Virus record (IMG/VR): IMGVR_UViG_3300027969_002350
Span: 26,494-90,493 of that record
Direction: 5' to 3' (one strand)
From: a virus
Length of the DNA: 64,000 nucleotides
The translations under genes were made by a program, and so were the position numbers. The notes beneath the pieces are model-generated. The model was not told the DNA's origin. It saw only the letters and a program-made list of their open reading frames with translations, and searched no databases. Shown in pieces: positions 12,362-54,114 of the stretch (positions are counted from its first letter, which is position 1; every line of letters starts with the position of its first letter).

Positions 12362-13223
12362 TTTTGAAACAGATAAAAACTATCTTCCAGTATTGGATCA
12401 TGGTTTTGTAGGTCTTGTTGACCATATGGGCAGTGATAACGCCATCGTTCAAGCCGCTCGTGTTAGTTATGGTGCTGGCACAAAACAAGTTCAAGATGAC
12501 CGCAACTTAATCCGGTATCTAATGCGTCATGAACATACAACACCATTTGAAATGTGCGAAGTAAAGTTCCACATTAAACTTCCTATCTTTGTTATGCGAC
12601 AACTTGTACGGCATCGTACAGCCAGCATGAATGAATATAGTGCTCGCTATAGTGTGCTTACAGATGAGTTCTACATTCCAGAGTTTGAACAAATACAAAA
12701 GCAAAGCACAACTAACAAGCAAGGCAGAGAAGAAAGTGCCTGGGGCTTTGATGAGAAGCGTAGCGTACAACATGCTTTCCAACGTAGCTTTCATAATGCA
12801 TACAAAGAATATGCAAGTTTGCTGGGCAAGGAAGATTCTGGACTGGCACGTGAGCTTGCTAGGAGTGTGCTTCCAGTAGGCGGATATACAGAATTGTATT
12901 GGAAAGCCAACTTAAAGAACTTTCTGCACATGGCTCGCTTACGCATGGATCCACACGCTCAATGGGAGATCCGAGAGTTTGCAGGCGCTATGTATGACTT
13001 AGTTAAGCCATTATTTCCAGAGGCATGTACTGCATTTGAAGACTACGCTGTTAACTCAGTGAAGCTAAGTGCTGGAGAGTACGAGCTAGTTAAGAATTTA
13101 ATTAGTCATGCTAAATGGGCTTCGTTAGTCGAGCAATACGGCAATGACGAAAAAGCACTGGGCGCAGACGCAGGACTTGGTGTTCGTGAACTTAAAGAGT
13201 TTAAAGATAAATTAGGTCTGTAA
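12339..13223 (+). CDS. thyX: FAD-dependent thymidylate synthase
   Basis: AARVSY, HTTPFE, signature RHRTASMNEYSARY, ELARSVLP, HAQWEIR. Confidence 0.97.
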   Translation: MTLRTEINFETDKNYLPVLDHGFVGLVDHMGSDNAIVQAARVSYGAGTKQVQDDRNLIRYLMRHEHTTPFEMCEVKFHIKLPIFVMRQLVRHRTASMNEYSARYSVLTDEFYIPEFEQIQKQSTTNKQGREESAWGFDEKRSVQHAFQRSFHNAYKEYASLLGKEDSGLARELARSVLPVGGYTELYWKANLKNFLHMARLRMDPHAQWEIREFAGAMYDLVKPLFPEACTAFEDYAVNSVKLSAGEYELVKNLISHAKWASLVEQYGNDEKALGADAGLGVRELKEFKDKLGL

Positions 13224-13766
13224 AGGATCTACACTAAGTTCATTAATGTGAACTCCTGCAGGCTGCGAGATTATCCATTTGATATAATCAGCAGCCTGTT
13301 TTGTTGGCATTGTTTTCCTGTCAGGATGCTTGGTTTGATTATTAGATAAAGTACCAAAGCTAATCAATGTAACTTTGGGATTAGTTGCCCACACACCAGT
13401 CATACCCAAACTGTTAGCATAATCACGTAATGCTTTCTTTTCAGCATTATATAACCAATCTGTTGCTTTCATAACCCTATCAGTTGTACTACCAACACAA
13501 ATTATTAAAGTTTGTTTGTTTTCTGTTTTAAGTTTTTTGTATACTGCTTCAAGTAACAATGTTTGATTGAACTTCCACAATGCACTATTAATAATGACTA
13601 TATCGTAATCAATACTCATATCAGCAAATACTTGTTGGTGTTCTGCTTTAGTTAGATCTAACTTATGAGTTGTTCTACTTACAAAAGTAAGGTCATGTCC
13701 TGTTAGCTCTGTGTTAAGAGCTTCTGCTAATCCATACGCTGGATTACCTGATATTAATATTTTCAT
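13212..13766 (-). CDS. Short-chain dehydrogenase/reductase-like protein
   Basis: N-terminal Rossmann ILISGNPAYGLA, INSA, YxxxK (YNAEK). Confidence 0.75.
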   Translation of the reverse strand: MKILISGNPAYGLAEALNTELTGHDLTFVSRTTHKLDLTKAEHQQVFADMSIDYDIVIINSALWKFNQTLLLEAVYKKLKTENKQTLIICVGSTTDRVMKATDWLYNAEKKALRDYANSLGMTGVWATNPKVTLISFGTLSNNQTKHPDRKTMPTKQAADYIKWIISQPAGVHINELSVDPLQT

Positions 13767-14494
13767 AATTTATTTATTTCTTCCATATCGTAATATACGT
13801 TAACGTCTGTTTTTGGACAATGATCAAAAACAGAAATATCAATTTCAATGTTGTTACCTTGCATTATTTTTTTAATCAAATCAAATAATACAAAATTATT
13901 TTCGTCTGATAAATGATTTTGTAATCTATCTTCTCGTTCAAAATGCATACCTTTGTGCGGAATATTGTAAAATTCTCTTTCTAACTCGTTTACCATGCCT
14001 AAATTAAATTCGTCAGCACAATTAATATACGGATTAGAATTTCTAGTTCTACTCTCAACCATACACGGTAGCATAATTAATTTAATATTATGTTCTGCAC
14101 ATACGTTTATAATTTTTTCAATTATAGCATCGTGAACAAATATATCAAACTCGTCAGTTTGAAGGTACTTATAATATTGTTCTGCTGCCTTAATATGTTT
14201 ATAATACATCTTTGTTTCGATGTTTGGCATGCTTAATTGATGTTCAACTACAAACAAATTGCAAATGCACATATCTACAGGAACATCGGTATAAAGTCTT
14301 CCAGGCGCAGTAATTGTAAAAATAACAGTATCGTAATCTTGATAGTTTTTTATAAAATGTTGATATGCGTGGAACAAACTTGTGCCTGGTTCTGAGTGAT
14401 TAATGGCATTTCCAAATTCGTTGTGCAATAATGTTGTCCAACTAGTTGGACCATTGCTTCCTGAAAAACTATCTCCAAAAATCCCTATTTTCAT
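13763..14494 (-). CDS. SGNH/GDSL-fold hydrolase or acyltransferase-like protein
   Basis: N-terminal IFGDSF, PGTS, C-terminal NHL. Confidence 0.6.
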   Translation of the reverse strand: MKIGIFGDSFSGSNGPTSWTTLLHNEFGNAINHSEPGTSLFHAYQHFIKNYQDYDTVIFTITAPGRLYTDVPVDMCICNLFVVEHQLSMPNIETKMYYKHIKAAEQYYKYLQTDEFDIFVHDAIIEKIINVCAEHNIKLIMLPCMVESRTRNSNPYINCADEFNLGMVNELEREFYNIPHKGMHFEREDRLQNHLSDENNFVLFDLIKKIMQGNNIEIDISVFDHCPKTDVNVYYDMEEINKL

Positions 14495-15804
14495 TTAAAT
14501 AACCTTGTGTATTCTGGTGCAATATTTAATATGCTATGTCCACGTGCTTGATCCAAATACTTTGTAAACTTGACGAACTCGGGAAGTTTATCACTGTAGT
14601 CAGCACCTAACATGTATTTTGTAATACTGTTTAGTATGTTTTCTGCGTTCTTTGCAATGTCTTCTGGATACTCTGCTTTAAACTCAGCAATACATTTAGC
14701 ATAGTAGTCGACAATTTCTTGTTTCATGTCTGCAGGTAAAACACGAACGTTAACACGTTTTGGTCCGTGTGCTACATGATGTGTAATAATAGGACGCTTC
14801 TTTGTGCTATTGATCTTAGTAAAGCCACTGCTGTCTAGCTTCCATTTCATAAAACGAGGAACGTGCCAAATATTGTATGCTGTTACTGTACAGGCCATCC
14901 AGGCCATAATGTTTGGATTCTTTTCTGCATATTCGTCTAATTTCTGCAAGTTCTTGTATGCCTGTGTCCACTTTAAAGGCCAACGCTGATATTCAACTGT
15001 TTCGCCCATGCCGTCCATACTGGCACCAACACGCACTTGTTTAAACTGTGTCCACATATCTAATACACGCTGTGGCAGGTTACTCATGTTAGTGTTATAC
15101 TCAATGATCATCTTCTTACTTTGACCAGCATCAATGCATTTTTGCAAAAACTCATAATGACGTTCAATCATCATTGGTTCTCCGCCGGCCATATAAACAT
15201 GCTTGATGTTTGGAATGTTAGCTTCTATCTGTGTCCAAAATGATTCACTGTTGTGCCAGTCATAGTCAGTAGTAGATAGTCTGCCACTATCATTGCGCTC
15301 TAATTTAACTGTACCGTGCGTATCTTTGTATTCATCACTGCCATGATATTCAGTCCATTGTTCATACCAAGTGTGACTATCAGTAGGGCCGCACATACGG
15401 CAAGCAAGATTACATAAATTACCAAAACGCAAGTCGTAGTATTCTAAGTTTCTATTTTTAACCGAGCCATCTTCTTCTGTTATATAGCGAGCATCATCTA
15501 TACTAAACTTCCAGTTTTCTAATTCGTATTGTCTGCGACTGTTAAGTCCACTGGCCTCTTCTTGTTGGCATCGGCCACATTCTTGACTCCATTCTCCCAC
15601 TAGCATATTCTTGCGAACTTCTTTCATTAGTGTAGCATTACGAGCAGTTTCCATATTGTCTCTGCCAGCATTATATGGAGTGCCATCTTCGTGTCTAACT
15701 ACACCTTGATTCTCAGTTACATTGGCTTGACAGCATATACGAATGTCGCCATTATTTCGAACAGCTTGGAAGTTCCATGGTATAGGACAAAATGTATTAG
15801 TCAT
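14491..15804 (-). CDS. Radical SAM protein with N-terminal twitch-like domain
   Basis: FCPIPW..ICC..CGRC; CNLACRMC; GGEP; YNTN. Confidence 0.92.
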   Translation of the reverse strand: MTNTFCPIPWNFQAVRNNGDIRICCQANVTENQGVVRHEDGTPYNAGRDNMETARNATLMKEVRKNMLVGEWSQECGRCQQEEASGLNSRRQYELENWKFSIDDARYITEEDGSVKNRNLEYYDLRFGNLCNLACRMCGPTDSHTWYEQWTEYHGSDEYKDTHGTVKLERNDSGRLSTTDYDWHNSESFWTQIEANIPNIKHVYMAGGEPMMIERHYEFLQKCIDAGQSKKMIIEYNTNMSNLPQRVLDMWTQFKQVRVGASMDGMGETVEYQRWPLKWTQAYKNLQKLDEYAEKNPNIMAWMACTVTAYNIWHVPRFMKWKLDSSGFTKINSTKKRPIITHHVAHGPKRVNVRVLPADMKQEIVDYYAKCIAEFKAEYPEDIAKNAENILNSITKYMLGADYSDKLPEFVKFTKYLDQARGHSILNIAPEYTRLFK

Positions 15805-17167
15805 TTATTCTTCCCTTGTATTCTATTGTATCTACTATTCGTTTCCATAAATCAGGCAAGTTTCTTCTTAAGTCTTGTCCTCTTATTTTATCCAAGTCTG
15901 CTGTATATTCAACAAAAAGTTTTAATTGTTCCTTATCGACTTCTTCTTTGGCATGTAATGCATTTACTACGTTAGTATAAATCCTATACAATCCTAGTTC
16001 GGCTAGCCATTTTTTGTCATGGTCAACATCACTGTTATTCATTTGTTCCAATAAAGTATCTCTGTGCGTTACTAACTTATGCACTAGTAACTTTTTTGCA
16101 GGATATAGTGTTGGGCTTAGATATTTTGGATCATATAAAATATTAATAATCATAGTAGTAAAATCTGAGCCGTAATATCTAACTAGTACATCCCACCATT
16201 CTTTATTAGATATTTCTTTTTGTAAAGCAAACCACCACTCTAACATTTTATGAAATGTCCATACATTAAAAATACTTAATACAGGAGCCCATTTAATGTA
16301 TATACGTTCTGGATCATCTTTTTCTGTTATTAACCATTCTCTTACTGATGCTTCTACAATGTTCCATTCACTAGGAAATCGGATATAATCATTGACTGGG
16401 CCCACGCCATCGACGCTTAGATTAACAATAACTTTTTTAAATTGTTTAAGACGGCTTAATACTTTTTCTTTTGGTACCCAGCTTGCATTAGAAAAGATGT
16501 CTAGTATGATTTGATCCTGTCGTCCTGTAGATATAATCATATCGATTGCTTCAATAAAATTAGGATGCAACATTGGTTCGCCTCCTGTAAATTTAATTTC
16601 TTCAACATCCCTAAAGTCTTCGATGTCCCAGTTATTATCAACGTTAATAACTGTTTTATGAAATTTTCTATCCGAATAATACGACGCAAGTTTATTGTCG
16701 TCATCGTACCATGTAGTACTTAAACTACCATTACAAGTCCTGCATTTTAAATTACAGTGATTACCAAACGCTAGTTCAATATATCTAATTTTATTTTTTT
16801 GATTAGGATCAGCAAGTTGCTCTTGGTTGTTTTCATTCCACATCAAATTTGCTTTTTCTCGCATACTTTTATTTTTTCGACGAGCATTTTTAACTTCTGG
16901 TAGTGTACTAGTTTCTTCTTGATAACATTTTCTACAGCCTGGAACTGGTTTGCCAGCAATAATAGTTTGTCTAATTTCTTCCCACTCGGGCGAGTTTAAT
17001 GCCCCAGTAAAAGAAATATTATCAACATTGAACTTGTCAAATTTAAATTCGTTACCTTTAACTTTATAGTCAGGATGTTTAATATCAAAACGGCAGCAAG
17101 GTTTTATTTCTCCTGCTGGTTTAGTTTGAAGATGTATCCATGGGAGAATACAAAAAACATTACTCAT
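15797..17167 (-). CDS. Radical SAM protein with N-terminal twitch-like domain
   Basis: FCILPW..PCC..CRKC; CNLKCRTC; GGEP. Start at 17167 with AGGAG RBS. Confidence 0.92.
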   Translation of the reverse strand: MSNVFCILPWIHLQTKPAGEIKPCCRFDIKHPDYKVKGNEFKFDKFNVDNISFTGALNSPEWEEIRQTIIAGKPVPGCRKCYQEETSTLPEVKNARRKNKSMREKANLMWNENNQEQLADPNQKNKIRYIELAFGNHCNLKCRTCNGSLSTTWYDDDNKLASYYSDRKFHKTVINVDNNWDIEDFRDVEEIKFTGGEPMLHPNFIEAIDMIISTGRQDQIILDIFSNASWVPKEKVLSRLKQFKKVIVNLSVDGVGPVNDYIRFPSEWNIVEASVREWLITEKDDPERIYIKWAPVLSIFNVWTFHKMLEWWFALQKEISNKEWWDVLVRYYGSDFTTMIINILYDPKYLSPTLYPAKKLLVHKLVTHRDTLLEQMNNSDVDHDKKWLAELGLYRIYTNVVNALHAKEEVDKEQLKLFVEYTADLDKIRGQDLRRNLPDLWKRIVDTIEYKGRIND

Positions 17168-18326
17168 AACTCTTATCTCCTGGAAACAAAGGTAACTTAG
17201 TGCCAGGAGCACGTTTTGGAATCTTACTATCTGCACTACTTACACAACTTGTCCCGCCACAAGGCATTGGCTTGTCATATAACTTAAATCCAGTTTCAAT
17301 ATGTCCTAAAGGAACTTCGCTACAACTATAACTACGTTTTACTGTGCCGTCTGGTTCGCGAATAATAATACTGCGAAATCCACTACTACACTCCCATTTA
17401 TTAAAGTTATTAAAGTTAAAAGCATTAAAACGTTCTGCTTGATCCATAAACCAAGGCTTGCCTTCTTTATCAACAAACTCAATTTGATAGTGTGGATCAA
17501 CATCGACTTGTTTCTTACGCTGAGTATCTGCCTTGTCAATCATGAACGTAGGTTTCGGACGTTTCACTAATCCAGACTTTAATGCTTTTTCTTCTGTGTA
17601 AGCACGTTGTGGCATACCATTGTGTAACTTAGCCAACATCTCAGGTGTATAACCATCTACCACACGGCTTGCAGTAGGATCGCTTTGTGGCTTGAGTGTT
17701 ACGTTGATACCTCTATTGTGAAAGTATAAACTTAGATCATAAATCTCATTAAACTGTTCTGGCACCATAACCATATTAATAGTTATTTGTGTGTCATATT
17801 CTTGGCATAAGACTAGTTTGTCAGCAAACTCTTCTACTTTCTTATCTGTGTCAACATGTTCACGATGGCAACTTGCTGTAATACTAGCACGATGAAAATT
17901 TTTAACTGCTGGCACATATTGTTCTTCAAACCATTTCATAGGACGACTCATGTTACTGGTCATATGCACACTGGTATAGTTTGTGTTAGCCGCATCATTA
18001 TTTAAATGATTAAGGATGTCAATGTAAGCTGGATGGAATGTGGGTTCTCCTCCACTTAGACTAAAGTGGAAACTATTAAATCCATTTTCTCTAGCTTGAC
18101 GTTTTATCTCATCTACAGTATGTAACATTAAAGGTGTAGGGCGATGGTCCTTTGTGTCACTGCGAGCATACGGCCAGCAATAACTACAACGATAGTTGCA
18201 GTATCGTCCTAATAGCCACGATACGGTAAACATATCGCGGTATAGCATTGTTCTTTGACCAACTCTAACTAAGTCGTTAAATGGAATCTTAGTAAAGTCA
18301 TATTCACTGGTTTTTAAATCACTCAT
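17160..18326 (-). CDS. Radical SAM protein with C-terminal Cys-rich (SPASM/twitch-like) domain
   Basis: CNYRCSYC, GGEPT; C-terminal C..G...C...C....C..SAD..IPK. Confidence 0.9.
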   Translation of the reverse strand: MSDLKTSEYDFTKIPFNDLVRVGQRTMLYRDMFTVSWLLGRYCNYRCSYCWPYARSDTKDHRPTPLMLHTVDEIKRQARENGFNSFHFSLSGGEPTFHPAYIDILNHLNNDAANTNYTSVHMTSNMSRPMKWFEEQYVPAVKNFHRASITASCHREHVDTDKKVEEFADKLVLCQEYDTQITINMVMVPEQFNEIYDLSLYFHNRGINVTLKPQSDPTASRVVDGYTPEMLAKLHNGMPQRAYTEEKALKSGLVKRPKPTFMIDKADTQRKKQVDVDPHYQIEFVDKEGKPWFMDQAERFNAFNFNNFNKWECSSGFRSIIIREPDGTVKRSYSCSEVPLGHIETGFKLYDKPMPCGGTSCVSSADSKIPKRAPGTKLPLFPGDKSYE

Positions 18327-18552
18327 TTTTTTCGTAGATAAATTTTACTTCTTTGCCTGGTCCTGCTTCGCTGGGCAGGCCGCCATACTCTTTAATATAC
18401 CAAGTAATAGCAGCCTTGTACCATCCTGTGCTATCATGCCTACTTTCTTTATTAAACTTATATATGTTATCATTGGTTGCTTCCATGCTACTAATAATTC
18501 TAGCGGCTTCTAATTGTAACACTCTTAAGGGCATTGTGTCAAGGTCTATCAT
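18319..18552 (-). CDS. Small hypothetical protein
   Basis: 77 aa, overlapping both neighbours in the operon. Confidence 0.75.
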   Translation of the reverse strand: MIDLDTMPLRVLQLEAARIISSMEATNDNIYKFNKESRHDSTGWYKAAITWYIKEYGGLPSEAGPGKEVKFIYEKNE

Positions 18553-19751
18553 AGGTCCAAATTATTCATTAGTTTAATTAATTTATCTGTTTTCTTAACA
18601 GCTTGTTTGCGCTCTAAAAATTCCTGTGCCAGTTGTTTATAGTTATCATTGTATGCTGTACCAATTCTAAATATCATATTATCAAGAAACGTGATAAAGT
18701 TTTCGGGGTCTACATGATTAGAATTGGCAATATTATCCAACACAACTTTTTTAGCCTGTTCCATGTATTTAAGATAATATATCGGAAGATTTGCAATATC
18801 CAATTCAGTGGGTACACTTATAAAATTTCCGTACCACGTAAATTTTTTATTTGGTGCGTGAGTTTTGAATTGTTCATATATCCAAGAAATATATTGTGAA
18901 AAACTTTTTAAGTTAAAAATATTAACAGTAGGACTTAGTACTATTAATTCTGTCTTAGGATGTGTTATGTATCTAACAAAGTTTTCTTGAAAACAAGTCC
19001 AATCTAAACCGTGTCTTATAAGTTCAGCATCCTCTCCAAAACTTTCATTGCTAATGCCAATTCCCCATGACAAATTACTTGTGTCCATTTTAGCAACAAT
19101 TTTATCCATCAAGAATCGTTTACTATTGGCATTAGTACATATTTCTAATCTAATATTTTTACTGCTATTCTTTGAGCACTCATCAATAAAATCTACTAAC
19201 TCATAAAAACGATTACTGGCAGTAGGCTCTCCACCTAAAAATATAAAAATTATCTTATTAGCATACAGTTCTTTATCGATATGATTTTTAATCCACTGCT
19301 TAAAAACTGTATAATCATCCTCATTAGTATTATCTACTATTTCAATGCCTTCTTCTTGCGCTATCTTACTGCTACTACCAGACCAACAATATATGCAAGA
19401 CATATCACATATTCTATCAGGTCTAATTTCTATATAACTAATATAGCTATCACCCTCTAAGCTATTTCTTTTATCTTCAATAAAGTTATTATCCCATTTA
19501 TTGGCCCATTCTTTAAAGGCGCTATTACCTTTATTATAATCATTCCAACAGTTATTACAATCAATATGTTTAACATTTTTTAAACTTGCAATTCTTCTAT
19601 CTGTTATGTACTCATTTTTACTAATAAAATCTTCAGTTAGTTTGTCGGGAAACTGATGTGAAGCAGCCTTGCAACAATGGCTTACTGATCTTAATTCAAA
19701 ATTAATATTAATATCTGTCCAACTTTTAGAACAGTAAGTTTCGTTGCTCAT
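18549..19751 (-). CDS. Radical SAM protein with N-terminal twitch-like domain
   Basis: YCSKSW..HCC..CNNC; CDMSCIYC; GGEPT. Confidence 0.88.
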   Translation of the reverse strand: MSNETYCSKSWTDININFELRSVSHCCKAASHQFPDKLTEDFISKNEYITDRRIASLKNVKHIDCNNCWNDYNKGNSAFKEWANKWDNNFIEDKRNSLEGDSYISYIEIRPDRICDMSCIYCWSGSSSKIAQEEGIEIVDNTNEDDYTVFKQWIKNHIDKELYANKIIFIFLGGEPTASNRFYELVDFIDECSKNSSKNIRLEICTNANSKRFLMDKIVAKMDTSNLSWGIGISNESFGEDAELIRHGLDWTCFQENFVRYITHPKTELIVLSPTVNIFNLKSFSQYISWIYEQFKTHAPNKKFTWYGNFISVPTELDIANLPIYYLKYMEQAKKVVLDNIANSNHVDPENFITFLDNMIFRIGTAYNDNYKQLAQEFLERKQAVKKTDKLIKLMNNLDL

Positions 19752-20491
19752 ATACTAACTATCATAGTTTCTTGCTTTTGATTGATAGTAAAACTTTCTT
19801 CGCGTCCGCCACGTTTAAAATGCGTTTCCCCGTCTAAATATTCTTCTTTTACTGATACATTTTTACCTGCATATATATCAACAATTTTTTTATCTTTTGG
19901 TCCAATACATATAGCTACTACCGCTTCAACTGGTTGTTGAGAAAAATCATCTCCAAATTCTTTTGCAAGTAACCGAACAAATTGTTTATTGGATAATACA
20001 TCTTCCATACCGCAGGCAACAAATGCCGTGCCATAACCAAGATCCTCAGCAGTTAACTGTGCGTATGTGGCGCTAATCATTGCGTCACGTACAGCACCTT
20101 TGACCATAACATATTTAGATACAGGACTTTTAACTTCGCTGTATACTCTGTCATATACTTCTGTTCCTTTACTTTCTACAAGATCAACCATTTGATGCTC
20201 TGGAGCAGGGTTTGTTATATAAAGTAATACCAACGGGGCTTTAGTTTGTAGCAGATATATTTCTTTACCAAGTTCGTCATTACACGATGTAATATTATCA
20301 CATAGTTCTGACTTTAATCTTTTACCGGCTGCAGAGTCTGTCAACGCAAACACTTTGTATCCATATATTTTGTTTTTACTTGGTGCACGACGGGCACTAT
20401 CCAAAATAGTTTGAACATCGTCTTCGTTGATTTCGTCGGTCATTAACCTAGTAGTAAATCTAGATTTAATTAATTCATTCACTGTTGACAT
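19748..20491 (-). CDS. Nitroreductase-family flavoprotein
   Basis: SRFTTR, RAPSKN, LTAEDLGYGTAFV; AGGAG RBS. Confidence 0.8.
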   Translation of the reverse strand: MSTVNELIKSRFTTRLMTDEINEDDVQTILDSARRAPSKNKIYGYKVFALTDSAAGKRLKSELCDNITSCNDELGKEIYLLQTKAPLVLLYITNPAPEHQMVDLVESKGTEVYDRVYSEVKSPVSKYVMVKGAVRDAMISATYAQLTAEDLGYGTAFVACGMEDVLSNKQFVRLLAKEFGDDFSQQPVEAVVAICIGPKDKKIVDIYAGKNVSVKEEYLDGETHFKRGGREESFTINQKQETMIVSI

Positions 20492-47870: not shown

Positions 47871-48696
47871 CCAATTCTCCTTCTAAGCCGGATTTTATTT
47901 TTCGATTTAAATAGTCCTGACCCCTATAAATTTTAGGATCAACTGTTAACGGACTTATTTCAATGTTAAACATCTTTGCATAAAAATATAACGCATGTTC
48001 GGTGCCGATTAAATTCTTATTAAACGTTCGTTGGCCTATGACCGGCAGCCATCTATAAAACTCACATATCCTATTAAATGTAACGCTATCAGCAAACCAA
48101 AATACATCACCCAATCTATGAAAGGGAAACTGTACATCATCCTTAGCAGTATGGCAGCTATAAAATGTATTACTATTTGGATAAACTAAGTCTTTGGAAA
48201 CAAAATGTTTAATTTGATAATCTTCAAAAAACATATCAGTTCTCATCCTAATACATACATCATATCTAAAATTGTTGTCATATTCATATTTCTTTTTTAG
48301 ATGGCTGGCATGCATTATACTATAAAATTGGCCTGCGCACCATTCCAGCTTAGTAATACCATGTTCATTTATATGTGGGAAATTTCTATCACGTGTTTCT
48401 TGAATTTTATTTTTATTTGATGTTTCGTCTTCAAATAAAAATGAAATAGGATTCAACGAAGAAACTATACTACGCTTTTCATCTTCCGATATTGTTTCGC
48501 CTGGGACCGTCATATAATCCCATCCTTCGTGCATTAATAATCTATGCGGCGGCGTATTATAATCCCACATGTGGAAAAATATATCAACTGAATCAACTTT
48601 ATAATTAGCTTTTATTGTTTCAATAAATTTGTGCCAAGTTAAATGACATTTTTCCCATGTTCGTGGCTGGCCGCTTAAACAAATAGCAACTCTCAT
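47851..48696 (-). CDS. Putative glycosyltransferase-like protein (SGxxR...RxD family)
   Basis: AICLSGQPR, FHMWD, YDVCIRMRTD. Confidence 0.5.
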   Translation of the reverse strand: MRVAICLSGQPRTWEKCHLTWHKFIETIKANYKVDSVDIFFHMWDYNTPPHRLLMHEGWDYMTVPGETISEDEKRSIVSSLNPISFLFEDETSNKNKIQETRDRNFPHINEHGITKLEWCAGQFYSIMHASHLKKKYEYDNNFRYDVCIRMRTDMFFEDYQIKHFVSKDLVYPNSNTFYSCHTAKDDVQFPFHRLGDVFWFADSVTFNRICEFYRWLPVIGQRTFNKNLIGTEHALYFYAKMFNIEISPLTVDPKIYRGQDYLNRKIKSGLEGELGGHELI

Positions 48697-50093
48697 TTAG
48701 AATTTTTCCATTTAGTGTAGTATGGCTCAAATTCTGGAAACGTTTCTAAAAAGTTAGTGCCGCGACGTTTATCATGTTCATCAACGAATGCAACTAAATC
48801 TTTTTGATATACTGTTACTTCCTCGGGATCTTTTTGATTCATAGTTAATTCATATATGCGTTTAAATTTTTCTGCCTCCCATTTAAAGAATCCTTGATTA
48901 GCACTTCCGTACCATTCACCATTTTCTAAATTACGATACATCATTGTTACTTGATCAAAAATATACTCTTTAGCCCATGACGATGGCATAACATGAAAGA
49001 TACTTTGATGTGCCGGGTGTCTTAGAAACGGTGCATCTAAAATTAACGGGGCATGAACTGCATCGTGTCCTCCAAATTCGTTTTTAATAGCTAATACATC
49101 TTGTAAGAACAACGAATAAGTGGGAATACTAAGCACATTGTACGTACTCATGATAGTAATAGTACACTCGGGTATTTCTTTTAACACTCTGCGAATATTA
49201 CTTAACCATAAATCATAATTTAAGCCGTCACGTATATATTCTGCTGCCTTACCATGAGCATCACAGCTTGTAAAGATTTTAAACTTTTTAACTTTCTTTT
49301 CTTCACAGATAATTTTAACCTTTTCAAGGAACTTGTCAAATAACTGTGATGGTACACACAAGTTACTATTAATACTCAAATGTATATCTGGGTTAGGATT
49401 CTCGATCACATAATCAAGAACTTTAAAGGTATCCTTACTTAGTAACGGCTCGCCGCCGGTTACACGAAAATGCTGTAACTCTTTATAAACTGTGGGCCAC
49501 CATTTCCAAAATGCGTCCACGTAAGGGTTATATTGATTATGCGGGATTGGCATTTGGTCAATTTGTTTTAGTCCTGCAATATCATTAAAGTTGCCATGAG
49601 TAGGATAAGGACCGTGTTGTTTAATTTCTTCCATCCATAGGCTACTCACTTGTGGACTACAATAGCTACATTTAAAATTACAGACGTTACTAAAACTAAC
49701 TTCTAAATAACTTGGAGCAACATCTTGATCCCAGGGCATCTTACTTACTTCTTCAAAATGAGGCTTTGCCCATACGTCATAACTTTTGTAAATTCTATCG
49801 CTAAGAGCATCGGGGGCGCTGTCTTCTACTTTCCAACAATAGTCGCATTCTTTTGGACGTACACCTTCTAACATTAATTTACGTTGTTCTTTTTTGAACT
49901 TAGTATTATGTAACGCACTAGGATTGGCAGCTAATTCATCTAAAGGAATTTTGTGTGTAGTAGGATGATGACAACTATGGTTGTGTCCTGTCTGTAAATG
50001 CAATGTTACTTGCTTCCATTTAGCAATACAAAAACTTGGACTAACATCGTTAATCTTTTTTTGAAATGCAATGATATCTTTATTATGTTCCAT
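48693..50093 (-). CDS. Radical SAM protein with N-terminal twitch-like domain
   Basis: FCIAKW..SCHH..CDYC; CNFKCSYC; GGEP. Confidence 0.92.
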   Translation of the reverse strand: MEHNKDIIAFQKKINDVSPSFCIAKWKQVTLHLQTGHNHSCHHPTTHKIPLDELAANPSALHNTKFKKEQRKLMLEGVRPKECDYCWKVEDSAPDALSDRIYKSYDVWAKPHFEEVSKMPWDQDVAPSYLEVSFSNVCNFKCSYCSPQVSSLWMEEIKQHGPYPTHGNFNDIAGLKQIDQMPIPHNQYNPYVDAFWKWWPTVYKELQHFRVTGGEPLLSKDTFKVLDYVIENPNPDIHLSINSNLCVPSQLFDKFLEKVKIICEEKKVKKFKIFTSCDAHGKAAEYIRDGLNYDLWLSNIRRVLKEIPECTITIMSTYNVLSIPTYSLFLQDVLAIKNEFGGHDAVHAPLILDAPFLRHPAHQSIFHVMPSSWAKEYIFDQVTMMYRNLENGEWYGSANQGFFKWEAEKFKRIYELTMNQKDPEEVTVYQKDLVAFVDEHDKRRGTNFLETFPEFEPYYTKWKNSK

Positions 50094-50094: not shown

Positions 50095-51066
50095 TTAATT
50101 TATTGAATTATTGACTTGGTTTTCTTTAACCTGGGCGCCAAGCCTGGGTGGATTAATCCAACTTTCTTTAAACATTTTGCTACCGTTGAAGTCTAATTCT
50201 GCTACCTCTAATCCTAGATTAGTGCGTAGAGATTCGCCTAACTTAAAAATTTCATCTTGTAGTTTTTTCTTATCATATGTCCAACCAGAAGTTAGACATT
50301 TTTCGTTGCCGCCCTCGAACTGTGGCTGTACACTATCTTTCCAAAATGCATCATGCCATTCAAAGTCTCGGACTAATGTAAAATCAAAATCTTGTCTAGC
50401 TAAATTTGACATGTAACATCCTAGTCTAGTTCCATACATTGCCCATAGTCCGTTGTCAATATCCGAACCAACACTGGCCCATACTAATAAACGTTTATAG
50501 TTTCTATCATGTACACGTTCTTTAAGTCTCCGCGGATCAACAAGTCCACCTCCTTCTAAGGCAAGTTTAACACCTTCTCTGAATCCTGCACGATATGCTT
50601 GATAAGCACTAGCATTGTTATGTACATCACTATAGATATTATTCATTTGATGATAGTAAATATCCCAACAAAAATCTACCTGTGCCTTGGGATCATCTGC
50701 GGCTTCGTGTGTTTTCATTTGTTCTACAACATGCTTAGGCCAAAGTTTAATTCCGCCATTACCATAAACTAATCCGTTGACAACATTTTTGCCAGCCCAT
50801 GATATAACATCGTGTCTGTTAATCCTTGTCATGTCTAATTCAATAGTTAGAAACTCGTCACGAACAATGTTGTCAGCATCAACTGTAATAAATCTATCTG
50901 TTTCGGCTGAGGCTGCGGCAGCTTTATGTGCCGCATCAAAGCCTTTGACTCCGTGTACCCGTTTGGCCCATGGTGCTTTATTGCAAAGATCAGCAAAATT
51001 TTTATCTGCGTTTGGTTCATCGTAGCTTAAAAATACGATATCAAAACTAGTAATAGGTACAAGCAT
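50095..51066 (-). CDS. Putative glycosyltransferase (GT-A-like, VDAD family)
   Basis: FLSYDEP, GVKGFDAAH, TVDAD, NGLVYGNGGIKLW. Confidence 0.6.
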   Translation of the reverse strand: MLVPITSFDIVFLSYDEPNADKNFADLCNKAPWAKRVHGVKGFDAAHKAAAASAETDRFITVDADNIVRDEFLTIELDMTRINRHDVISWAGKNVVNGLVYGNGGIKLWPKHVVEQMKTHEAADDPKAQVDFCWDIYYHQMNNIYSDVHNNASAYQAYRAGFREGVKLALEGGGLVDPRRLKERVHDRNYKRLLVWASVGSDIDNGLWAMYGTRLGCYMSNLARQDFDFTLVRDFEWHDAFWKDSVQPQFEGGNEKCLTSGWTYDKKKLQDEIFKLGESLRTNLGLEVAELDFNGSKMFKESWINPPRLGAQVKENQVNNSIN

Positions 51067-52027
51067 TTTCTTCCTCGGTATGTAAGTGAAGGTAGTTACA
51101 AAGTAATCTAACTTCTTTATCTGTACTTAATATTATTTCAAACTGATTATAATTATTAAGTTGTTCACTGTTTAATTTAATCGAACCCAGCATCTTTGCT
51201 GGATCATATTTCTGATAAAAATATAAAATAAGATCATCGCTCAATCTAAACGACTGTATATCATTTATTGTACTTTGCAATTTTAACACATTTCCATGCT
51301 GTTTGTAAAGTAAATTGGGTTTGTATTCAAAATTATTCGAAGTAGGTTGTTCAAAAAACTCTGTGCCCACTGATATAATTTGATTATCATTGTAATATAA
51401 AAAGCCAATATTTTTTAACTGTTCGGCATTATCTGGCAACCATGGACATTTGTAAGTTATTTCATGTGCTTCAAATAGTTCTTTTGTAGAGATTGTAAAT
51501 TTACCCAGTAAACGTGAAGGTTCATTTTTTTCCGTGCAATATATTTCTATATACAAAGGTAATTCTTCCAAATCTTTTTCTGTGAGTTTTTCTATTGAGA
51601 AATTGAACTTAAAAATATCGTCATCAAAACGTATATGTATATTTTTAGATACAATATCGCAGATTAAATGAATATATGAATGTTCTGCGGTAGTAGCAAA
51701 AATAAAATCAAATTCACTTTTATGTCGTTGTCTATGCTGTATTAATTCTAACAGGCCATTATCATGATTTTTTTTAATTTTTAATTTAGACAGCGATAAT
51801 TTATTATTAAATACCTTGGTTGTTAAGTTAGATGGATTTACTTTAATGATGACATTTCGACGCGATGATGCTAGTATCTCTATGGGAGAAATGCTTGCTA
51901 TACTGTAAGTCAATCGATCATATTCTACATAAACCTGCTGTTCTTTTTTTACATTTCTTTTTTTAAGAACACGAGGTTGTATATCAAACTCGTCGTCCTC
52001 GCTGGTATCTTCTAACAAATTACTCAT
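51047..52027 (-). CDS. Hypothetical protein
   Basis: 326-aa ORF in the operon; no motif recognised. Confidence 0.75.
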   Translation of the reverse strand: MSNLLEDTSEDDEFDIQPRVLKKRNVKKEQQVYVEYDRLTYSIASISPIEILASSRRNVIIKVNPSNLTTKVFNNKLSLSKLKIKKNHDNGLLELIQHRQRHKSEFDFIFATTAEHSYIHLICDIVSKNIHIRFDDDIFKFNFSIEKLTEKDLEELPLYIEIYCTEKNEPSRLLGKFTISTKELFEAHEITYKCPWLPDNAEQLKNIGFLYYNDNQIISVGTEFFEQPTSNNFEYKPNLLYKQHGNVLKLQSTINDIQSFRLSDDLILYFYQKYDPAKMLGSIKLNSEQLNNYNQFEIILSTDKEVRLLCNYLHLHTEEENACTYY

Positions 52028-52843
52028 TTATTTTTTTAAATTTAGTAAAGTTTCTTCAGTTAACCAGCCAATTGTTTCATATTTAACTAACCCTAATTGT
52101 ACAAAATTTTCAATTTTAAGAGTACTAGAGTCATTGACCCAATAAGTTAAAAATTCACTCCATCGTCTAGTCCAATTATTATTAACAAAATTATTTTCTT
52201 GTTTTGATAAATCTATACAATGCATAAAATCATATGTAGAAATTTTGCCACTGGTTATTACTTGTAATAATGATAGTACCCAGCCGACCCATATAAACTT
52301 AGGGAACGATGGCATCTCATGTTCTTTATCTGCAAAAAAATTAATATAATTGTCTTGATCATAATTGGCACATAATATAGTAGCCAGGCCAAAAATGTTA
52401 TCACAACCCTTATCTTTATTAAAAAATATAGCATTAGGAATACTACAAAGTCCAAAATTTTTTAATTCTGTACTTGGATTATTGTACAATACCGGATCTA
52501 TGATTTGACTATTAAACGAATATCGATTCCTGGGTAGTATGATAGAATCTAAACCTCTAAGATTTTCCCATACTGTAGTGTCAAATGCTGTTAATAATTG
52601 ATCAGGCAATAACGCAATAGTCTTAGTATACGGAGTTGCTAACAACGCTTGAAAATAGCATAATGTAGGATTTTTGTCTTTTAAATAGATAACTTTATCT
52701 GCTTTTATGAATTTGATATCCTTATTGTTGACAATGACGCTAACAGGACGAGTAGGATCTATTTTTTTAATACTATGAATTAATAAATCTATTTCGACTT
52801 GATTGTCTACATCTCCGTTTACTATTAGATAACCTTCACTCAT
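52028..52843 (-). CDS. Degenerate nucleotide-diphospho-sugar transferase-like protein
   Basis: GYLIV...SIK, TPYTKTIALLPD aligns with SPYKQTLMIDVD of its neighbour. Confidence 0.5.
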   Translation of the reverse strand: MSEGYLIVNGDVDNQVEIDLLIHSIKKIDPTRPVSVIVNNKDIKFIKADKVIYLKDKNPTLCYFQALLATPYTKTIALLPDQLLTAFDTTVWENLRGLDSIILPRNRYSFNSQIIDPVLYNNPSTELKNFGLCSIPNAIFFNKDKGCDNIFGLATILCANYDQDNYINFFADKEHEMPSFPKFIWVGWVLSLLQVITSGKISTYDFMHCIDLSKQENNFVNNNWTRRWSEFLTYWVNDSSTLKIENFVQLGLVKYETIGWLTEETLLNLKK

Positions 52844-53732
52844 AGATAAGTTCCTTAAGTTTAGGGTAGTGTCTTAAAATTGCCATTTTATTCATTAAGT
52901 GTATGTTTTCGTTTATTACTCTGCTACAGATATTTTTCCATAATTCTTTAGGATCAGGGCACAATAAAACGTAATCGCTGAGTGATTTAAATTCCACAAT
53001 GTCATCAATTTGTTCACTGAACCTCATTGCTTTTCCTGGAAGCTCTGATACAATATTTCCCGAATCGTGTCCGTTTAATACATGTGTTGCAATACTGGCA
53101 GCATAGTCGGTTCTGAACAATGCGCCCGGAAACTTGTACAGCCATTTATAATATTGATAATTCTCTTTGACATGTTCCCATATTCCAAAGAATAATTTAG
53201 CCACTTCACTATCGCTTCTCCAATAAACAACAGTACTCCACCACATGTCTATACCATCTGGATGTAGTTTTTGTTCCCAGATACGTGGCTTATAATTACG
53301 AACACTGATAGCATCTTTATACATTGCTAGTTCATAATTAGTATCAAATATTGTATCTAAACTATTATTGCCCACAATGTAATCAACGTCGATCATTAAA
53401 GTTTGTTTGTAAGGACTTTTTTGAAAGATGCTGTGTTTATTCTTATTATTGAATTGTGTACTAAATTCTGTCCAAGGACTATCTCTATGCATCCTTGTAT
53501 TACGTTCGTGTTGAATATCTTCTACAATAATATGGTCAAAAGTATCAGCAAGTTGCTCCATGGTTAATTCTGCTTGTAACACGTTGTATGTTTTTAAATC
53601 CGTAAGCAAGGTTACATGATTGTTTTTCATGTGACGTTTTACGTTTGATGCTGCCACAATGGCTAATTTTTCATAATCAATTTTGCCGTTGTTATATGCA
53701 ATCAGCAAAACACCTTTATCAAATTTAGGCAT
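52836..53732 (-). CDS. Nucleotide-diphospho-sugar transferase (GT-A, GT8-like)
   Basis: KGVLLIAYNN, SPYKQTLMIDVD (DxD), FRTDYA, HLMNK. Confidence 0.6.
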   Translation of the reverse strand: MPKFDKGVLLIAYNNGKIDYEKLAIVAASNVKRHMKNNHVTLLTDLKTYNVLQAELTMEQLADTFDHIIVEDIQHERNTRMHRDSPWTEFSTQFNNKNKHSIFQKSPYKQTLMIDVDYIVGNNSLDTIFDTNYELAMYKDAISVRNYKPRIWEQKLHPDGIDMWWSTVVYWRSDSEVAKLFFGIWEHVKENYQYYKWLYKFPGALFRTDYAASIATHVLNGHDSGNIVSELPGKAMRFSEQIDDIVEFKSLSDYVLLCPDPKELWKNICSRVINENIHLMNKMAILRHYPKLKELIYE

Positions 53733-54078
53733 TTAATCCAACCAATCCTTTAGTGTCTCGCTGTTTTCTTATTTTTTCATAGCTATTGTAGTATTCGTTG
53801 AGAGCTTCTGTGTATGCACTAAACAATCTAGTATGAAAATCTTCCAACGCTGTTATTAAAATTGGATTATTGTTGTCGTCGATGACAACAAACTGTTCTA
53901 CTTTTTTATCTATTAAGTGTTGAACAAAATTGATTAGTTCTAAAGTTGCAGTAAACATAGAATTAGAATACCCGATAGTTAACATCGTATTCATTCGTTG
54001 TTTTAAATTAAGTTTTTGATTGTTTAAAGTTAAGCGGTAGTTACTGAACTCTAACGCTTCTTTTAATTTGTCGTCCAT
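53725..54078 (-). CDS. Hypothetical phage protein
   Basis: GGAG RBS; preceded by TATAAATA. Confidence 0.8.
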   Translation of the reverse strand: MDDKLKEALEFSNYRLTLNNQKLNLKQRMNTMLTIGYSNSMFTATLELINFVQHLIDKKVEQFVVIDDNNNPILITALEDFHTRLFSAYTEALNEYYNSYEKIRKQRDTKGLVGLNA

Positions 54079-54106
54079 TTTGACTCCATTATATACTAGT
54101 ATAATG

Positions 54107-54114
54107 TATTTATA
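54107..54114 (-). promoter_or_regulatory. T4-like late promoter TATAAATA at the head of the enzyme cluster
   Basis: Exact consensus in the intergenic gap. Confidence 0.65.

What the first reader, a model, noticed from the sequence alone, without database searches (positions are those of the whole stretch)
13212..54114. ~41 kb phage radical-SAM/glycosylation supercluster linked to the structural module: candidate virion-decoration system
Seen: 13 CxxxCxxC radical SAM genes here (15 in the window), interleaved with 6 SGNH-fold genes, about 9 glycosyltransferase-like genes, a NodU/CmcH carbamoyltransferase, a methyltransferase, 2 oxygenases, a nitroreductase, an SDR and a sugar-activation cassette. 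Genes are tightly coupled, and 24.8-54 kb continues the minus-strand run of structural genes, with TAAATA motifs in the gaps. Known: these families build and tailor glycans and modified peptides; TATAAATA is the T4 late promoter; DNA-modification genes in T4-like phages are usually pre-replicative. Inference: a late assembly line that glycosylates and radically tailors virion proteins (surface shielding, adhesion or stability) rather than auxiliary metabolism. I know of no characterised phage pathway of this size, though similar genes may be common in uncultured phages.
Basis: partly seen in the sequence, partly recalled or inferred. Interest (0 to 1): 0.9.

Follow-up and report, generated by a model that had tools for sequence, protein, structure and literature searches.

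The report
Jumbo-phage fibre-linked sugar-tailoring gene island
An uncultured giant phage carries, directly behind its tail-fibre genes, a 41-kb block of soluble sugar-transferring, sugar-activating and radical-chemistry enzymes that probably builds an unusual sugar coat for the fibres, but neither the product nor the target has been tested.

Summary
There are 13 CxxxCxxC genes in 13212-54114 and 15 in the window. Eight of the 15 pass the NCBIfam cut-off for the uncharacterised N-terminal-twitch radical SAM family NF033640.

The window is the end of a 90-kb fragment of a jumbo phage. Its only cultured relative with this system is Ralstonia phage RsoM2USA.

A gene order of fibre genes, g62, GT8-like g61, then GT-A g58 is kept in related viral contigs. 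g61 is present in 54 of 54 loci with enough flank and g62 in 53 of 54. What follows g58 is hypervariable. Some relatives have no radical SAM gene there, so the glycosyltransferases are the core and the radical SAM genes are accessories.

No membrane protein is encoded in the block. The fibre-type gene just upstream carries a Tyr/Gly-only loop, kept at one position in its family.

Best reading (0.45): a virion fibre glycan built and edited in the cytoplasm. Timing, product and acceptor are untested.

Similar islands are in print at the genomic level (PMC7029224). This scan noted the same kind on other DNA: 208 findings in at least 183 genomes hold the search words.

The parts
13212..14494 (-). 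g20 (184 aa, Rossmann-like start, SDR not confirmed) and g21 (243 aa, GDS motif, SGNH-like candidate)
   Evidence: No Pfam or PHROG hit. adh_short scores only E 0.17. g21 links to g52 at 57% by hhalign.
14491..17236 (-). g22 and g23, N-terminal-twitch radical SAM enzymes
   Evidence: NF033640 at 383 and 286 bits, cut-off 170. CxxxCxxC present.
17160..18326 (-). g24, radical SAM without the N-terminal twitch domain (paralogue of g39)
   Evidence: PF04055 at 52.7 bits. g24 to g39 E 6e-13.
18319..18552 (-). Conserved 77-aa ORF missing from the 80-aa ORF list, function unknown
   Evidence: tblastn finds it in 8 distant loci at 49-64% identity. No Pfam hit.
18549..20491 (-). g25 (N-twitch-like radical SAM, just under cut-off) and g26 (nitroreductase family)
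   Evidence: NF033640 at 153 bits, below the 170 cut-off. PF00881 at 29.0 bits.
20554..24852 (+). Plus-strand insert: g27 Asp/Arg beta-hydroxylase-family 2OG oxygenase, g28 unknown (541 aa), g29 N-twitch radical SAM with a 230-aa N-terminal extension
   Evidence: PF05118 E 9.1e-9. NF033640 at 250.7 bits over residues 231-670.
24809..27207 (-). g30 (N-twitch radical SAM) and g31 (radical SAM, other architecture)
   Evidence: NF033640 at 324.5 bits. PF04055 at 39.9 bits.
27120..29386 (-). g32 unknown; g33 and g34 are tandem paralogues, SGNH-like candidates
   Evidence: g33 to g34 E 8.5e-61. g33 to g54 at 75% by hhalign. DUF6071 weak, E 0.0026.
29379..30779 (-). g35, the best-conserved N-twitch radical SAM
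   Evidence: NF033640 at 431 bits. 4863 proteins at E<=1e-10, the best 120 listed at 70-91% identity.
30829..34987 (-). g36 (105 aa, Cys-rich) and g37, g38, g39, g40: radical SAM genes without the N-twitch
   Evidence: CxxxCxxC in g37-g40. Paralogy of g31/g37/g38/g40 and g24/g39. PF04055 for g39 and g40.
34987..35838 (-). g41, a conserved core gene; methyltransferase-like motifs only
   Evidence: Best-matched to 34 ORFs in 34 loci. Invariant G-G-W..D and E-H. PDB profile search gave nothing significant.
35831..38238 (-). g42, g43, g44: GT-A glycosyltransferase paralogues of g58
   Evidence: Paralogy. They share the invariant DxD of alignment A1.
38263..39735 (-). g45, NodU/CmcH-family carbamoyltransferase
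   Evidence: PF16861 at 182.5 bits and PF02543 at 119.8 bits. 46% identical to an RsoM2USA gene.
39732..43819 (-). g46-g50 sugar cassette: GatZ/class II aldolase-like, AroE-like dehydrogenase, SnoaL-like, nucleotidyltransferase-kinase fusion, cupin
   Evidence: Pfam and NCBIfam family-level hits. Kept in close relatives.
43797..46969 (-). g51 and g52 (SGNH-like candidates), g53 (DUF7796-like family), g54 (DUF6071/SGNH-like)
   Evidence: PF19547 at 43.6 bits for g54. hhalign links.
46953..48696 (-). g55 and g56, paralogues of g53; DUF7796-like, fold unassigned
   Evidence: hhalign 100% for g55-g56 and 94.5-94.7% to g53. Atlas neighbours are DUF7796 clusters. PDB profile search found nothing significant.
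48693..50093 (-). g57, the N-twitch radical SAM next to the core
   Evidence: NF033640 at 340.8 bits. 40% identical to the RsoM2USA gene annotated as RsoM2USA_349.
50095..51066 (-). g58, core GT-A glycosyltransferase (DxD at D63/D65)
   Evidence: AF2 pLDDT 90.4. Foldseek best E 3.1e-4, all top rows GT-A enzymes. VIA Z 11.4, rmsd 2.9, 142 aligned. No Pfam hit.
51047..52843 (-). g59 (unknown) and g60 (GT8-like paralogue of g61 with the DxD replaced by PDQ)
   Evidence: hhalign g60-g61 99.5%.
52836..53732 (-). g61, core GT8-like (glycogenin-like) glycosyltransferase; D115xD117 invariant, H217 in at least 90% of rows
   Evidence: Profile against PDB: glycogenin-1 E 0.0022. AF2 pLDDT 91.9. Foldseek glycogenin E 1.2e-7. 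VIA Z 14.8, tied within 1 Z with UGGT, LARGE1, GlyE and LgtC at 13.8.
53725..54078 (-). g62, conserved 117-aa core protein of unknown fold
   Evidence: Present in 53 of 54 loci. No family or PDB match.
54107..54114 (-). Exact TATAAATA, 36 nt before the g62 start, in the 54-nt gap after the fibre genes
54133..55170 (-). g63, fibre-type protein with the loop GGGG(YG)9-HCNDNS-(YG)7-C (nt 54364-54492); candidate acceptor
   Evidence: Sequence. The loop is kept at one alignment position in homologues down to 29% identity. It is the only Tyr/Gly-rich ORF among 2068 ORFs of the loci.
55172..63959 (-). g64 (tail-fibre-like), g65, and g66 (giant virion protein, cut by the contig end)
   Evidence: PHROG hits: tail fibre, virion structural protein phrog_10938 E 7.8e-167. 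The RsoM2USA counterpart ORF361 was found in virions by MS (PMC8504454, passages).
2209..5010 (-). g05 and g06, two further N-twitch radical SAM genes outside the given interval
   Evidence: NF033640 at 218 and 243 bits.

Best explanation
This is a phage-encoded, fully soluble (cytoplasmic) glycan assembly and tailoring island, wired to the tail-fibre operon.

Shown:
- A conserved core always follows the fibre genes: small protein g62, GT8-like transferase g61 with its degenerate paralogue g60, GT-A transferases g58/g42-44, and g41.
- Downstream of g58 lies a hypervariable set of radical SAM enzymes (mostly the uncharacterised N-terminal-twitch family), SGNH-like proteins, a carbamoyltransferase and a sugar kinase/nucleotidyltransferase cassette.

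Inferred:
- The cassette makes one or more nucleotide sugars, the radical SAM enzymes edit them, and other enzymes add or trim carbamoyl or acyl groups.
- The transferases attach and extend the glycan on a virion fibre protein while virions assemble in the cytoplasm.
- The most likely acceptor is the fibre-type protein encoded directly upstream (g63), whose Tyr/Gly-only loop offers many hydroxyl acceptors.
- The variable enzyme set would then give each phage lineage a different fibre glycan, serving adhesion, shielding or stability.
For: (1) Synteny. Of 54 related viral loci with at least 5 kb upstream of the g58 homologue, 54 have g61, 53 have g62 and 43 have a recognisable fibre-type gene (g63/g64/g65) within 5.5 kb. 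The same order follows the MS-confirmed giant virion protein in cultured phage RsoM2USA (PMC8504454, passages).

(2) Coupling. g30 to g66 form one strand run. 27 of 36 junctions overlap, and all 5 longer gaps carry TAAATA, including the gaps before structural genes g64 and g65.

(3) The core is made of transferases. g61 is nearest to glycogenin and other GT8/GT24 enzymes by profile and by fold. g58 has a GT-A fold with an invariant DxD. Relatives L031 and L041 keep the core but have no CxxxCxxC gene in 20 kb.

(4) No 19-residue window reaches 1.6 on the Kyte-Doolittle scale in g20-g62, except one borderline case in g53. So no flippase, polymerase or lipid-carrier transferase is encoded.

(5) The Tyr/Gly loop is confined to the gene next to the core and is kept in place while its length and unit (YG or YGG) vary.

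(6) Precedents. XacN1, a relative of RsoM2USA, has at least two virion glycoproteins (PMC5852040, passage; its Supplementary Fig. S4 not seen). Mimivirus R707 is a glycogenin paralogue proposed for protein O-glycans (PMC9614988, passages).
Against: There is no direct evidence for any glycan, acceptor or expression time.

The core persists where the upstream protein has no Tyr/Gly loop: in the distant clade and in RsoM2USA.

The top rank of glycogenin for g61 is a tie. LgtC, which acts on lipooligosaccharide, scores Z 13.8 against 14.8.

Neither g61 nor g58 matches a Pfam glycosyltransferase model.

Authors of the closest published description favour host O-chain modification (PMC7029224).

Arrays of the same radical SAM families occur in two bacterial MAGs that gave no match to g61 (both MAGs may be incomplete). 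So that module does not need a virion.

TAAATA also precedes non-structural genes.
Confidence: 0.45

Rival explanations
1. Host envelope remodelling. The soluble transferases add edited sugars to host LPS core, O-unit or capsule intermediates at the cytoplasmic face. The host's own export machinery then displays them, changing receptors to block superinfection or to stop progeny being lost on cell debris.
For: This is the reading published for the pelagimyophage host-recognition cluster, where GT8 is the commonest family and radical SAM cassettes occur (PMC7029224, passages). LgtC-type GT8 enzymes are within 1 Z of the top hit for g61. In the Bacteriovoracaceae-labelled MAG locus L087, g58-type and g41-type genes and radical SAM genes sit beside an ORF with a hydrophobic N-terminus and a GT2-like ORF; these two assignments are my reading of the N-termini only.
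Against: No lipid-carrier transferase, flippase or polymerase is encoded. The tight and deep linkage is to fibre genes, not to early genes. Peripheral LPS transferases would also lack membrane segments, so this rival is weakened but not excluded.
Confidence: 0.2
2. Soluble small-molecule pathway. The island makes a carbamoylated, radically tailored glycoside, cyclitol or modified nucleotide that acts in the infected cell or on competitors. Fibre linkage would be incidental to a hypervariable hotspot.
For: The gene set resembles glycoside natural-product clusters: carbamoyltransferase, AroE-like, aldolase-like and SnoaL-like genes, a kinase-nucleotidyltransferase, and twitch-type radical SAM enzymes. 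MoaA and viperin, which act on nucleotides, are among the runner-up NCBIfam hits, far below their cut-offs. Similar arrays occur in bacterial MAGs. The island sits between two conserved anchors, the fibres and thyX, and expands and shrinks between them.
Against: The conserved part is transferases next to a fibre gene, not the tailoring genes. There is no exporter or resistance gene. The sugar cassette is present only in close relatives.
Confidence: 0.12
3. Direct radical (RiPP-like) modification of the fibre protein. The radical SAM enzymes cross-link or splice the Tyr-Gly loop of g63, and the transferases are secondary.
For: Twitch and SPASM domains are typical of peptide-modifying radical SAM enzymes. 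The loop is flanked by Cys residues.
Against: Loci with a YGG loop but no CxxxCxxC gene exist: L031 and L041. Matches to RiPP maturase models are far below their cut-offs, for example 20-30 bits against 300-650. No PqqD-like recognition domain was detected.
Confidence: 0.07
4. DNA hypermodification. The transferases and tailoring enzymes decorate modified bases in phage DNA.
For: Phage glycosyltransferases that hypermodify DNA are known (cited in PMC12619734, passage). One end of the island abuts thyX. Radical SAM enzymes occur in thymidine hypermodification pathways (recalled).
Against: The island is co-transcribed in layout with fibre genes. No hydroxymethylase, DNA glycosylase-like or base-kinase family was found in it. 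A separate sugar-nucleotide gene group lies beside the DNA polymerase 10-20 kb upstream. thyX changes orientation relative to the core between loci.
Confidence: 0.06

Closest known systems
Host recognition cluster (HRC) of pelagimyophages and cyanomyophages (Zaragoza-Solas et al. 2020, PMC7029224; passages read)
   Same: A large hypervariable region (mean 44.6 kb in pelagimyophages) next to the tail fibres. It holds many glycosyltransferases, with GT8 the commonest family, LPS-type sugar genes and radical SAM cassettes that come and go between close relatives.
   Different: It was described in T4-like genomes and interpreted as host O-chain modification, with no experiment. Here the host genome is a jumbo phage related to RsoM2USA. 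A fixed core order (g62, g61, g58) can be defined. No membrane protein is present.
Virion glycosylation in mycobacteriophages (Freeman et al. 2023; seen only as a citation and one sentence in PMC12619734) and in chloroviruses and mimiviruses (PMC9614988, passages)
   Same: Virus-encoded transferases next to or acting on structural proteins. Mimivirus R707 is a glycogenin-like GT8 proposed to build protein O-glycans. The PBCV-1 capsid transferase A64R is among the structural neighbours of g58.
   Different: None of those systems has a set of 13-15 radical SAM enzymes. No product is known here, and the phage families are unrelated.
NCBIfam NF033640, N_Twi_rSAM (twitch domain-containing radical SAM protein)
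   Same: Eight window genes pass its cut-off of 170 bits, scoring 218-431. The N-terminal Cys ligands, CxxxCxxC and GGE are conserved.
   Different: The family is a catalogue entry. I found no paper giving it a reaction. None of the 14 control genomes has a member over the cut-off.
Ralstonia phage RsoM2USA, genes annotated RsoM2USA_347-354 and 199-203 (MG752970)
   Same: Homologues of g62, g61, g58, g57, g44 and g41 lie in the same order after the giant virion protein. A second locus holds SGNH-like genes, a radical SAM gene and a carbamoyltransferase.
   Different: It is much smaller, with two N-twitch genes found. It has no Tyr/Gly loop. All these genes are annotated as hypothetical.

Membership tests
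Radical SAM superfamily (PF04055) | CxxxCxxC cluster motif and a match to the Pfam model over its cut-off | tested here: met
   15 ORFs have the motif. 13 places match in the 90-kb record, 10 of them over 29.5 bits. g37 and g38 have the motif but no Pfam hit. NCBIfam radical SAM models match both well below their cut-offs, best E 1e-12 for g37 and 2.3e-13 for g38.
NF033640 N_Twi_rSAM | Whole-protein score over the curated 170 bits | tested here: met
   g05 218, g06 243, g22 383, g23 286, g29 251, g30 325, g35 431, g57 341 bits. g25 at 153 bits is not met.
NF033640 N_Twi_rSAM | N-terminal Cys ligands for an auxiliary cluster ahead of the core | tested here: met
   C90 and C93 are invariant; C9 and C28 are kept in at least 90% of 24 aligned sequences. 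Pfam SPASM matches the N-termini of g23, g30 and g35.
GT8 / glycogenin-like retaining transferases (for g61) | GT-A fold closest to GT8 structures | tested here: met
   Foldseek glycogenin E 1.2e-7. VIA Z 14.8, rmsd 3.9, 224 aligned. Profile against PDB E 0.0022.
GT8 / glycogenin-like retaining transferases (for g61) | DxD and downstream His metal ligands | tested here: met
   D115 and D117 are invariant and H217 is kept in at least 90% of 27 sequences. The assignment of these residues to metal binding is recalled, not modelled.
GT8 / glycogenin-like retaining transferases (for g61) | Match to a Pfam glycosyltransferase model (the GT8 model is Glyco_transf_8; name recalled) | tested here: not met
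   No Pfam family at E<=0.01. None of the 120 listed homologues carries a precomputed Pfam domain.
GT8 / glycogenin-like retaining transferases (for g61) | Transfer to a tyrosine hydroxyl | not testable with these tools
   Needs an enzyme assay or MS.
GT-A (GT2-like) transferases (for g58, g42-44) | GT-A fold with DxD | tested here: met
   VIA Z 11.4 over residues 2-150. D63 and D65 are invariant in 35 sequences. No Pfam hit.
NodU/CmcH carbamoyltransferase (for g45) | Both Pfam domains over cut-off | tested here: met
   182.5 and 119.8 bits. It is not NodU itself: the NCBIfam equivalog scores 140 bits against a cut-off of 1000.
SGNH hydrolases (for g21, g33, g34, g51, g52, g54) | Match to an SGNH-type model and a GDS block | tested here: inconclusive
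   g54: DUF6071 at 43.6 bits, over its cut-off, but Lipase_GDSL at 16.9 bits, under its cut-off. The others are joined only by hhalign links of 57-87%. GDS or GCS motifs are visible at the N-termini.
T4-type late transcription | TATAAATA-type box at about -10 of late genes | tested here: inconclusive
   The motif is enriched before starts, 18 against 2.7 expected, and is present in all 5 gaps of the run. It is also found before g12, g14 and g16. No gp55-type factor was sought and no timing data were used.
Pelagimyophage-type host recognition cluster | Hypervariable fibre-adjacent region with GT8 and radical SAM cassettes | tested here: met
   A T4-like genome backbone was not tested. The relatives found are jumbo phages.
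RiPP radical SAM maturases (PlpX, SCIFF, sactipeptide types) | Score over an equivalog cut-off | tested here: not met
   The best such hits score 20-41 bits against cut-offs of 300-650.

The most novel reading that the evidence does not exclude
The distal fibre protein g63 displays a loop made only of Tyr and Gly. The glycogenin-like transferase g61 primes this loop by O-glycosylating its tyrosines, and the GT-A paralogues extend the chains. The interchangeable set of up to 15 radical SAM enzymes rewrites the sugars. The result would be a lineage-specific, Tyr-anchored glycan brush at the fibre tip: a virus-made glyco-adhesin or shield with chemistry not yet described for any enzyme family.
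Probability: 0.2. Interest if true: 0.85.

Novelty: new variant of a known kind. Interest (0 to 1): 0.64.

Why it matters
If the reading holds, a large clade of environmental jumbo phages spends up to a tenth of its genome on a private glycan factory for its host-recognition organelle. At least 140 viral contigs carry the core, and related contigs hold 7-19 radical SAM matches each.

It would give a first biological context and a testable substrate class to NF033640. That radical SAM family has thousands of environmental members (4863 proteins at E<=1e-10 for g35) and no known reaction.

It would also decide between two published-style readings of fibre-adjacent sugar genes in marine phages: virion decoration or host O-chain change.

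A cultured phage with the minimal system, RsoM2USA, makes this directly testable.

Tried and rejected
DNA search of the phage collection with 13 kb and 24 kb of the window found nothing.

PHROGs gave no hit for 10 of 10 unknown cluster proteins and for 6 of 10.

PDB profile searches of g58, g41, g62 and g55/g56 gave nothing significant.

A last Pfam pass at E<=5 on ten unassigned proteins gave only chance-level rows.

The Atlas placed g58 and g56 in unnamed viral clusters.

Complex prediction with g61 + g63 + g62 as partner returned 'no answer'.

I looked for the 33-residue peptide mentioned in earlier notes. None was found among ORFs of 20-79 aa lying mostly outside the annotated genes. I found a conserved 77-aa ORF instead.

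The deazaguanine genes noted upstream by another reader were not confirmed by Pfam. Only DNA polymerase B, a cytidylyltransferase-like protein, a UDP-glucose/GDP-mannose dehydrogenase and a 5'-3' exonuclease matched.

Exact TATAAATA is not enriched in the window as a whole, 7 against 15.25 expected. Only its placement is notable.

The moraphage paper (PMC12619734) mentions four core glycosyltransferase groups but no radical SAM. Whether it is the same lineage was not tested.

No expression data were sought (look-up of sequencing runs and read laying were not used).

Full report
WHAT THE WINDOW IS. The window is the last 64 kb of a 90,493-base IMG/VR virus record with an estimated completeness of 25%. 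That implies a genome of roughly 350 kb. Related contigs of 231-285 kb are rated 65-86% complete.

A DUF2201 metallopeptidase/VWA protein (g14) is 37-45% identical to proteins of PA5oct-like, Phosso and Atu_ph07 jumbo phages among the listed records. Nucleotide searches of 50,697 phage records found nothing.

I numbered 66 ORFs g01-g66. The finding covers g20-g62, which is 43 genes that fill the interval completely.

THE OBSERVATION. The radical SAM count is exact: 13 CxxxCxxC ORFs in the interval and 15 in the window. Thirteen places match PF04055, 10 of them over its cut-off.

NCBIfam sorts these genes into architectures. Eight (g05, g06, g22, g23, g29, g30, g35, g57) pass the cut-off of NF033640, 'twitch domain-containing radical SAM protein'. 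g25 falls just short at 153 bits against 170.

In an alignment of 24 of these proteins the CxxxCxxC triad, a GGE motif and two N-terminal cysteines are invariant. Two more N-terminal cysteines are kept in at least 90% of sequences. These look like intact enzymes with an auxiliary cluster ahead of the core.

The other six form two paralogue groups without the N-terminal domain: g24/g39 and g31/g37/g38/g40.

The carbamoyltransferase, the nitroreductase and one 2OG oxygenase are confirmed. The SDR, the methyltransferase and the second oxygenase are not. The sugar cassette g46-g50 has family-level hits only. These include a nucleotidyltransferase-kinase fusion whose two Pfam hits sit a fraction of a bit under their cut-offs.

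THE TRANSFERASES. Four paralogues (g42, g43, g44, g58) had no Pfam or PHROG hit. An AlphaFold model of g58 built on 35 sequences (pLDDT 90.4) matches only GT-A glycosyltransferases. Foldseek's best E-value is 3.1e-4. VIA gives Z 11.4, rmsd 2.9 over 142 residues. D63xD65 is invariant.

g61 matches glycogenin-1 by sequence profile (E 0.0022) and by fold (pLDDT 91.9; Foldseek 1.2e-7; VIA Z 14.8). D115xD117 is invariant.

That top rank is a tie. UGGT, LARGE1, the Skp1 galactosyltransferase, GlyE and LgtC lie within about 1 Z. The fold therefore says GT8/GT24-like, not which acceptor is used.

g60 is a full-length paralogue of g61 (hhalign 99.5%) in which the DxD reads PDQ. It may be a non-catalytic partner.

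g53, g55 and g56 form a further family near DUF7796 with no assigned fold.

LINKAGE TO THE FIBRES. g66 is a giant virion protein (phrog_10938, E 7.8e-167) and g64 has tail-fibre-type matches.

A scan of IMG/VR with g58 found 140 stretches that encode a relative, and 80 loci were kept. Mapping all window proteins onto them shows the order g66-g65-g64-g63-g62-g61-(g60-g59)-g58.

Of 54 loci with at least 5 kb upstream of g58, 54 have g61, 53 have g62 and 43 have a recognisable g63/g64/g65 homologue. Downstream, 51 of 69 loci have a radical SAM homologue within 3.2 kb. Among 51 loci with a full 10 kb downstream, the number of radical SAM genes ranges from 0 to 8.

Loci L031 and L041 have fibre genes, g62, g61, two diverged ORFs, g58, g44-type and g41-type genes, then a few ORFs and thyX. 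They have no CxxxCxxC ORF at all.

In the window, thyX (g19) also bounds the island. The 41 kb therefore looks like an expansion between two conserved anchors.

Among cultured or deposited phages only RsoM2USA has homologues of g44, g57 and g61. There they follow the giant protein ORF361 in the same order. ORF361 was identified in virions by mass spectrometry (PMC8504454, passages read).

A POSSIBLE ACCEPTOR. g63 is the gene directly before g62. It contains GGGG(YG)9-HCNDNS-(YG)7-C, encoded with mixed synonymous codons.

In 15 aligned homologues down to 29% identity, a loop made almost only of Tyr and Gly sits at the same position. Its length and unit (YG or YGG) vary. Among 2068 ORFs of the fetched loci, Tyr/Gly-rich windows occur only in g63 homologues, and only g63 has them in the window.

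The loop is absent in the more distant clade and in RsoM2USA, where the core persists. It cannot be the universal acceptor. It remains the best candidate in this lineage. The pairing with a glycogenin-like enzyme is suggestive, no more.

WHAT ARGUES ABOUT THE TARGET. No protein of g20-g62 has a membrane-like segment apart from a borderline stretch in g53. The island therefore lacks the flippase, polymerase and lipid-carrier enzymes of envelope polysaccharide pathways. Peripheral LPS transferases would pass this test too.

The run g30-g66 is one strand, with 27 overlaps in 36 junctions. Each of the five gaps over 12 nt holds TAAATA, including an exact TATAAATA before g62. A longer form, TAAATAC(N)AGT, occurs five times in the 90 kb. 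Each time it lies just before a gene start: g05, g35, g44, structural gene g65 and one upstream gene.

TAAATA is enriched before starts, 18 against 2.7 expected. It also precedes g12, g14 and g16, and nothing here measures timing.

The same radical SAM families form arrays in two bacterial MAGs. One is labelled Parcubacteria, with 8 N-twitch genes over the cut-off in one array. By my reading of the N-termini, it also has YrdC-like, carbamoyltransferase-sized and GT-B-like ORFs. The other is labelled Bacteriovoracaceae, with 10 over the cut-off plus g58-type and g41-type genes. Neither gave a match to g61. Binning errors cannot be excluded, and an empty search of an incomplete MAG does not show absence.

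This fits a mobile sugar-tailoring module that phages have coupled to a fibre-linked transferase core.

WHAT IS KNOWN. Zaragoza-Solas et al. described a mean 44.6-kb hypervariable 'host recognition cluster' beside pelagimyophage tail fibres. It has GT8-rich transferases and radical SAM cassettes, and they proposed host O-chain modification (PMC7029224, passages).

Nishimura et al. noted a T4-like marine viral genome with 12 radical SAM genes (PMC5332604, passage).

XacN1 virions contain at least two glycoproteins (PMC5852040, passage; supplement not seen), but XacN1 lacks this core. Mimivirus R707 is a glycogenin paralogue proposed for protein O-glycans (PMC9614988, passages).

I found no paper giving NF033640 a reaction or tying these islands to a product. 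One three-term search returned nothing. Two others returned papers that give the family no reaction (read).

This scan has met the same kind of island many times: 208 findings in at least 183 genomes hold the search words, and the eight notes shown reached similar readings. I checked the parts I reuse.

VERDICT. The feature is real and larger than most of its kind. Its conserved heart is a transferase operon attached to the fibre genes, and the radical SAM enzymes are a variable tailoring layer.

Virion fibre glycosylation is the best-supported reading (0.45). The rivals are host envelope remodelling (0.20), a soluble product (0.12), direct radical protein modification (0.07) and DNA modification (0.06).

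It is a new variant of a genomically described but functionally untested kind.

Noticed in passing
window 18319-18552 (-): A 77-aa ORF in what looked like a 222-nt gap is conserved at 49-64% identity in 8 distant loci. In L057 it lies directly before a g40-type radical SAM gene. It has no family match.
   Followed up: partly
window 3554, 30790, 38252, 56784 (-) and genome 10251 (+): The extended motif TAAATAC(N)AGT occurs 5 times in the 90 kb, always 11-33 nt before a start codon. In g35 and g44 the start follows within 11-14 nt, so those transcripts could be nearly leaderless.
   Followed up: partly
window 52028-52843 (-), g60: A full-length paralogue of the GT8-like g61 has lost the DxD (PDQ at the aligned position). 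It is possibly a pseudo-enzyme partner.
   Followed up: partly
L031-L033, L036 (g63 homologues of 844-1238 aa): In some relatives the Tyr/Gly-loop domain is the C-terminal part of a much longer fibre protein. That places the loop at the distal end.
   Followed up: no
L089 (MAG labelled Parcubacteria, 1.27-Mb contig) and L087 (MAG labelled Bacteriovoracaceae): Arrays of 8 and 10 N-twitch radical SAM genes over the cut-off occur in bacterial MAGs. They come with carbamoyltransferase-sized or g58-type neighbours, and neither MAG gave a match to the GT8-like core gene. Mis-binning of viral DNA is not excluded.
   Followed up: partly
window 3538-5010 (g06) and 10119-11108 (g15): An exact TATAAATA lies inside the annotated 5' ends (4884-4891 and 11063-11070). 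The real starts are probably further downstream than the longest ORF. The N-twitch model begins at residue 51 of g06.
   Followed up: no
genome 11.5-23.5 kb (L083, L084): Beside the DNA polymerase lie a cytidylyltransferase-like gene and a UDP-glucose/GDP-mannose dehydrogenase. The deazaguanine genes proposed there by another reader gave no Pfam hit at E<=0.001.
   Followed up: partly
window 408-1103 (g02), 7429-10104 (g12-g14): A PhyH-family dioxygenase and a MoxR-type AAA ATPase with a DUF2201 metallopeptidase/VWA protein lie in the plus-strand block upstream of the island.
   Followed up: no
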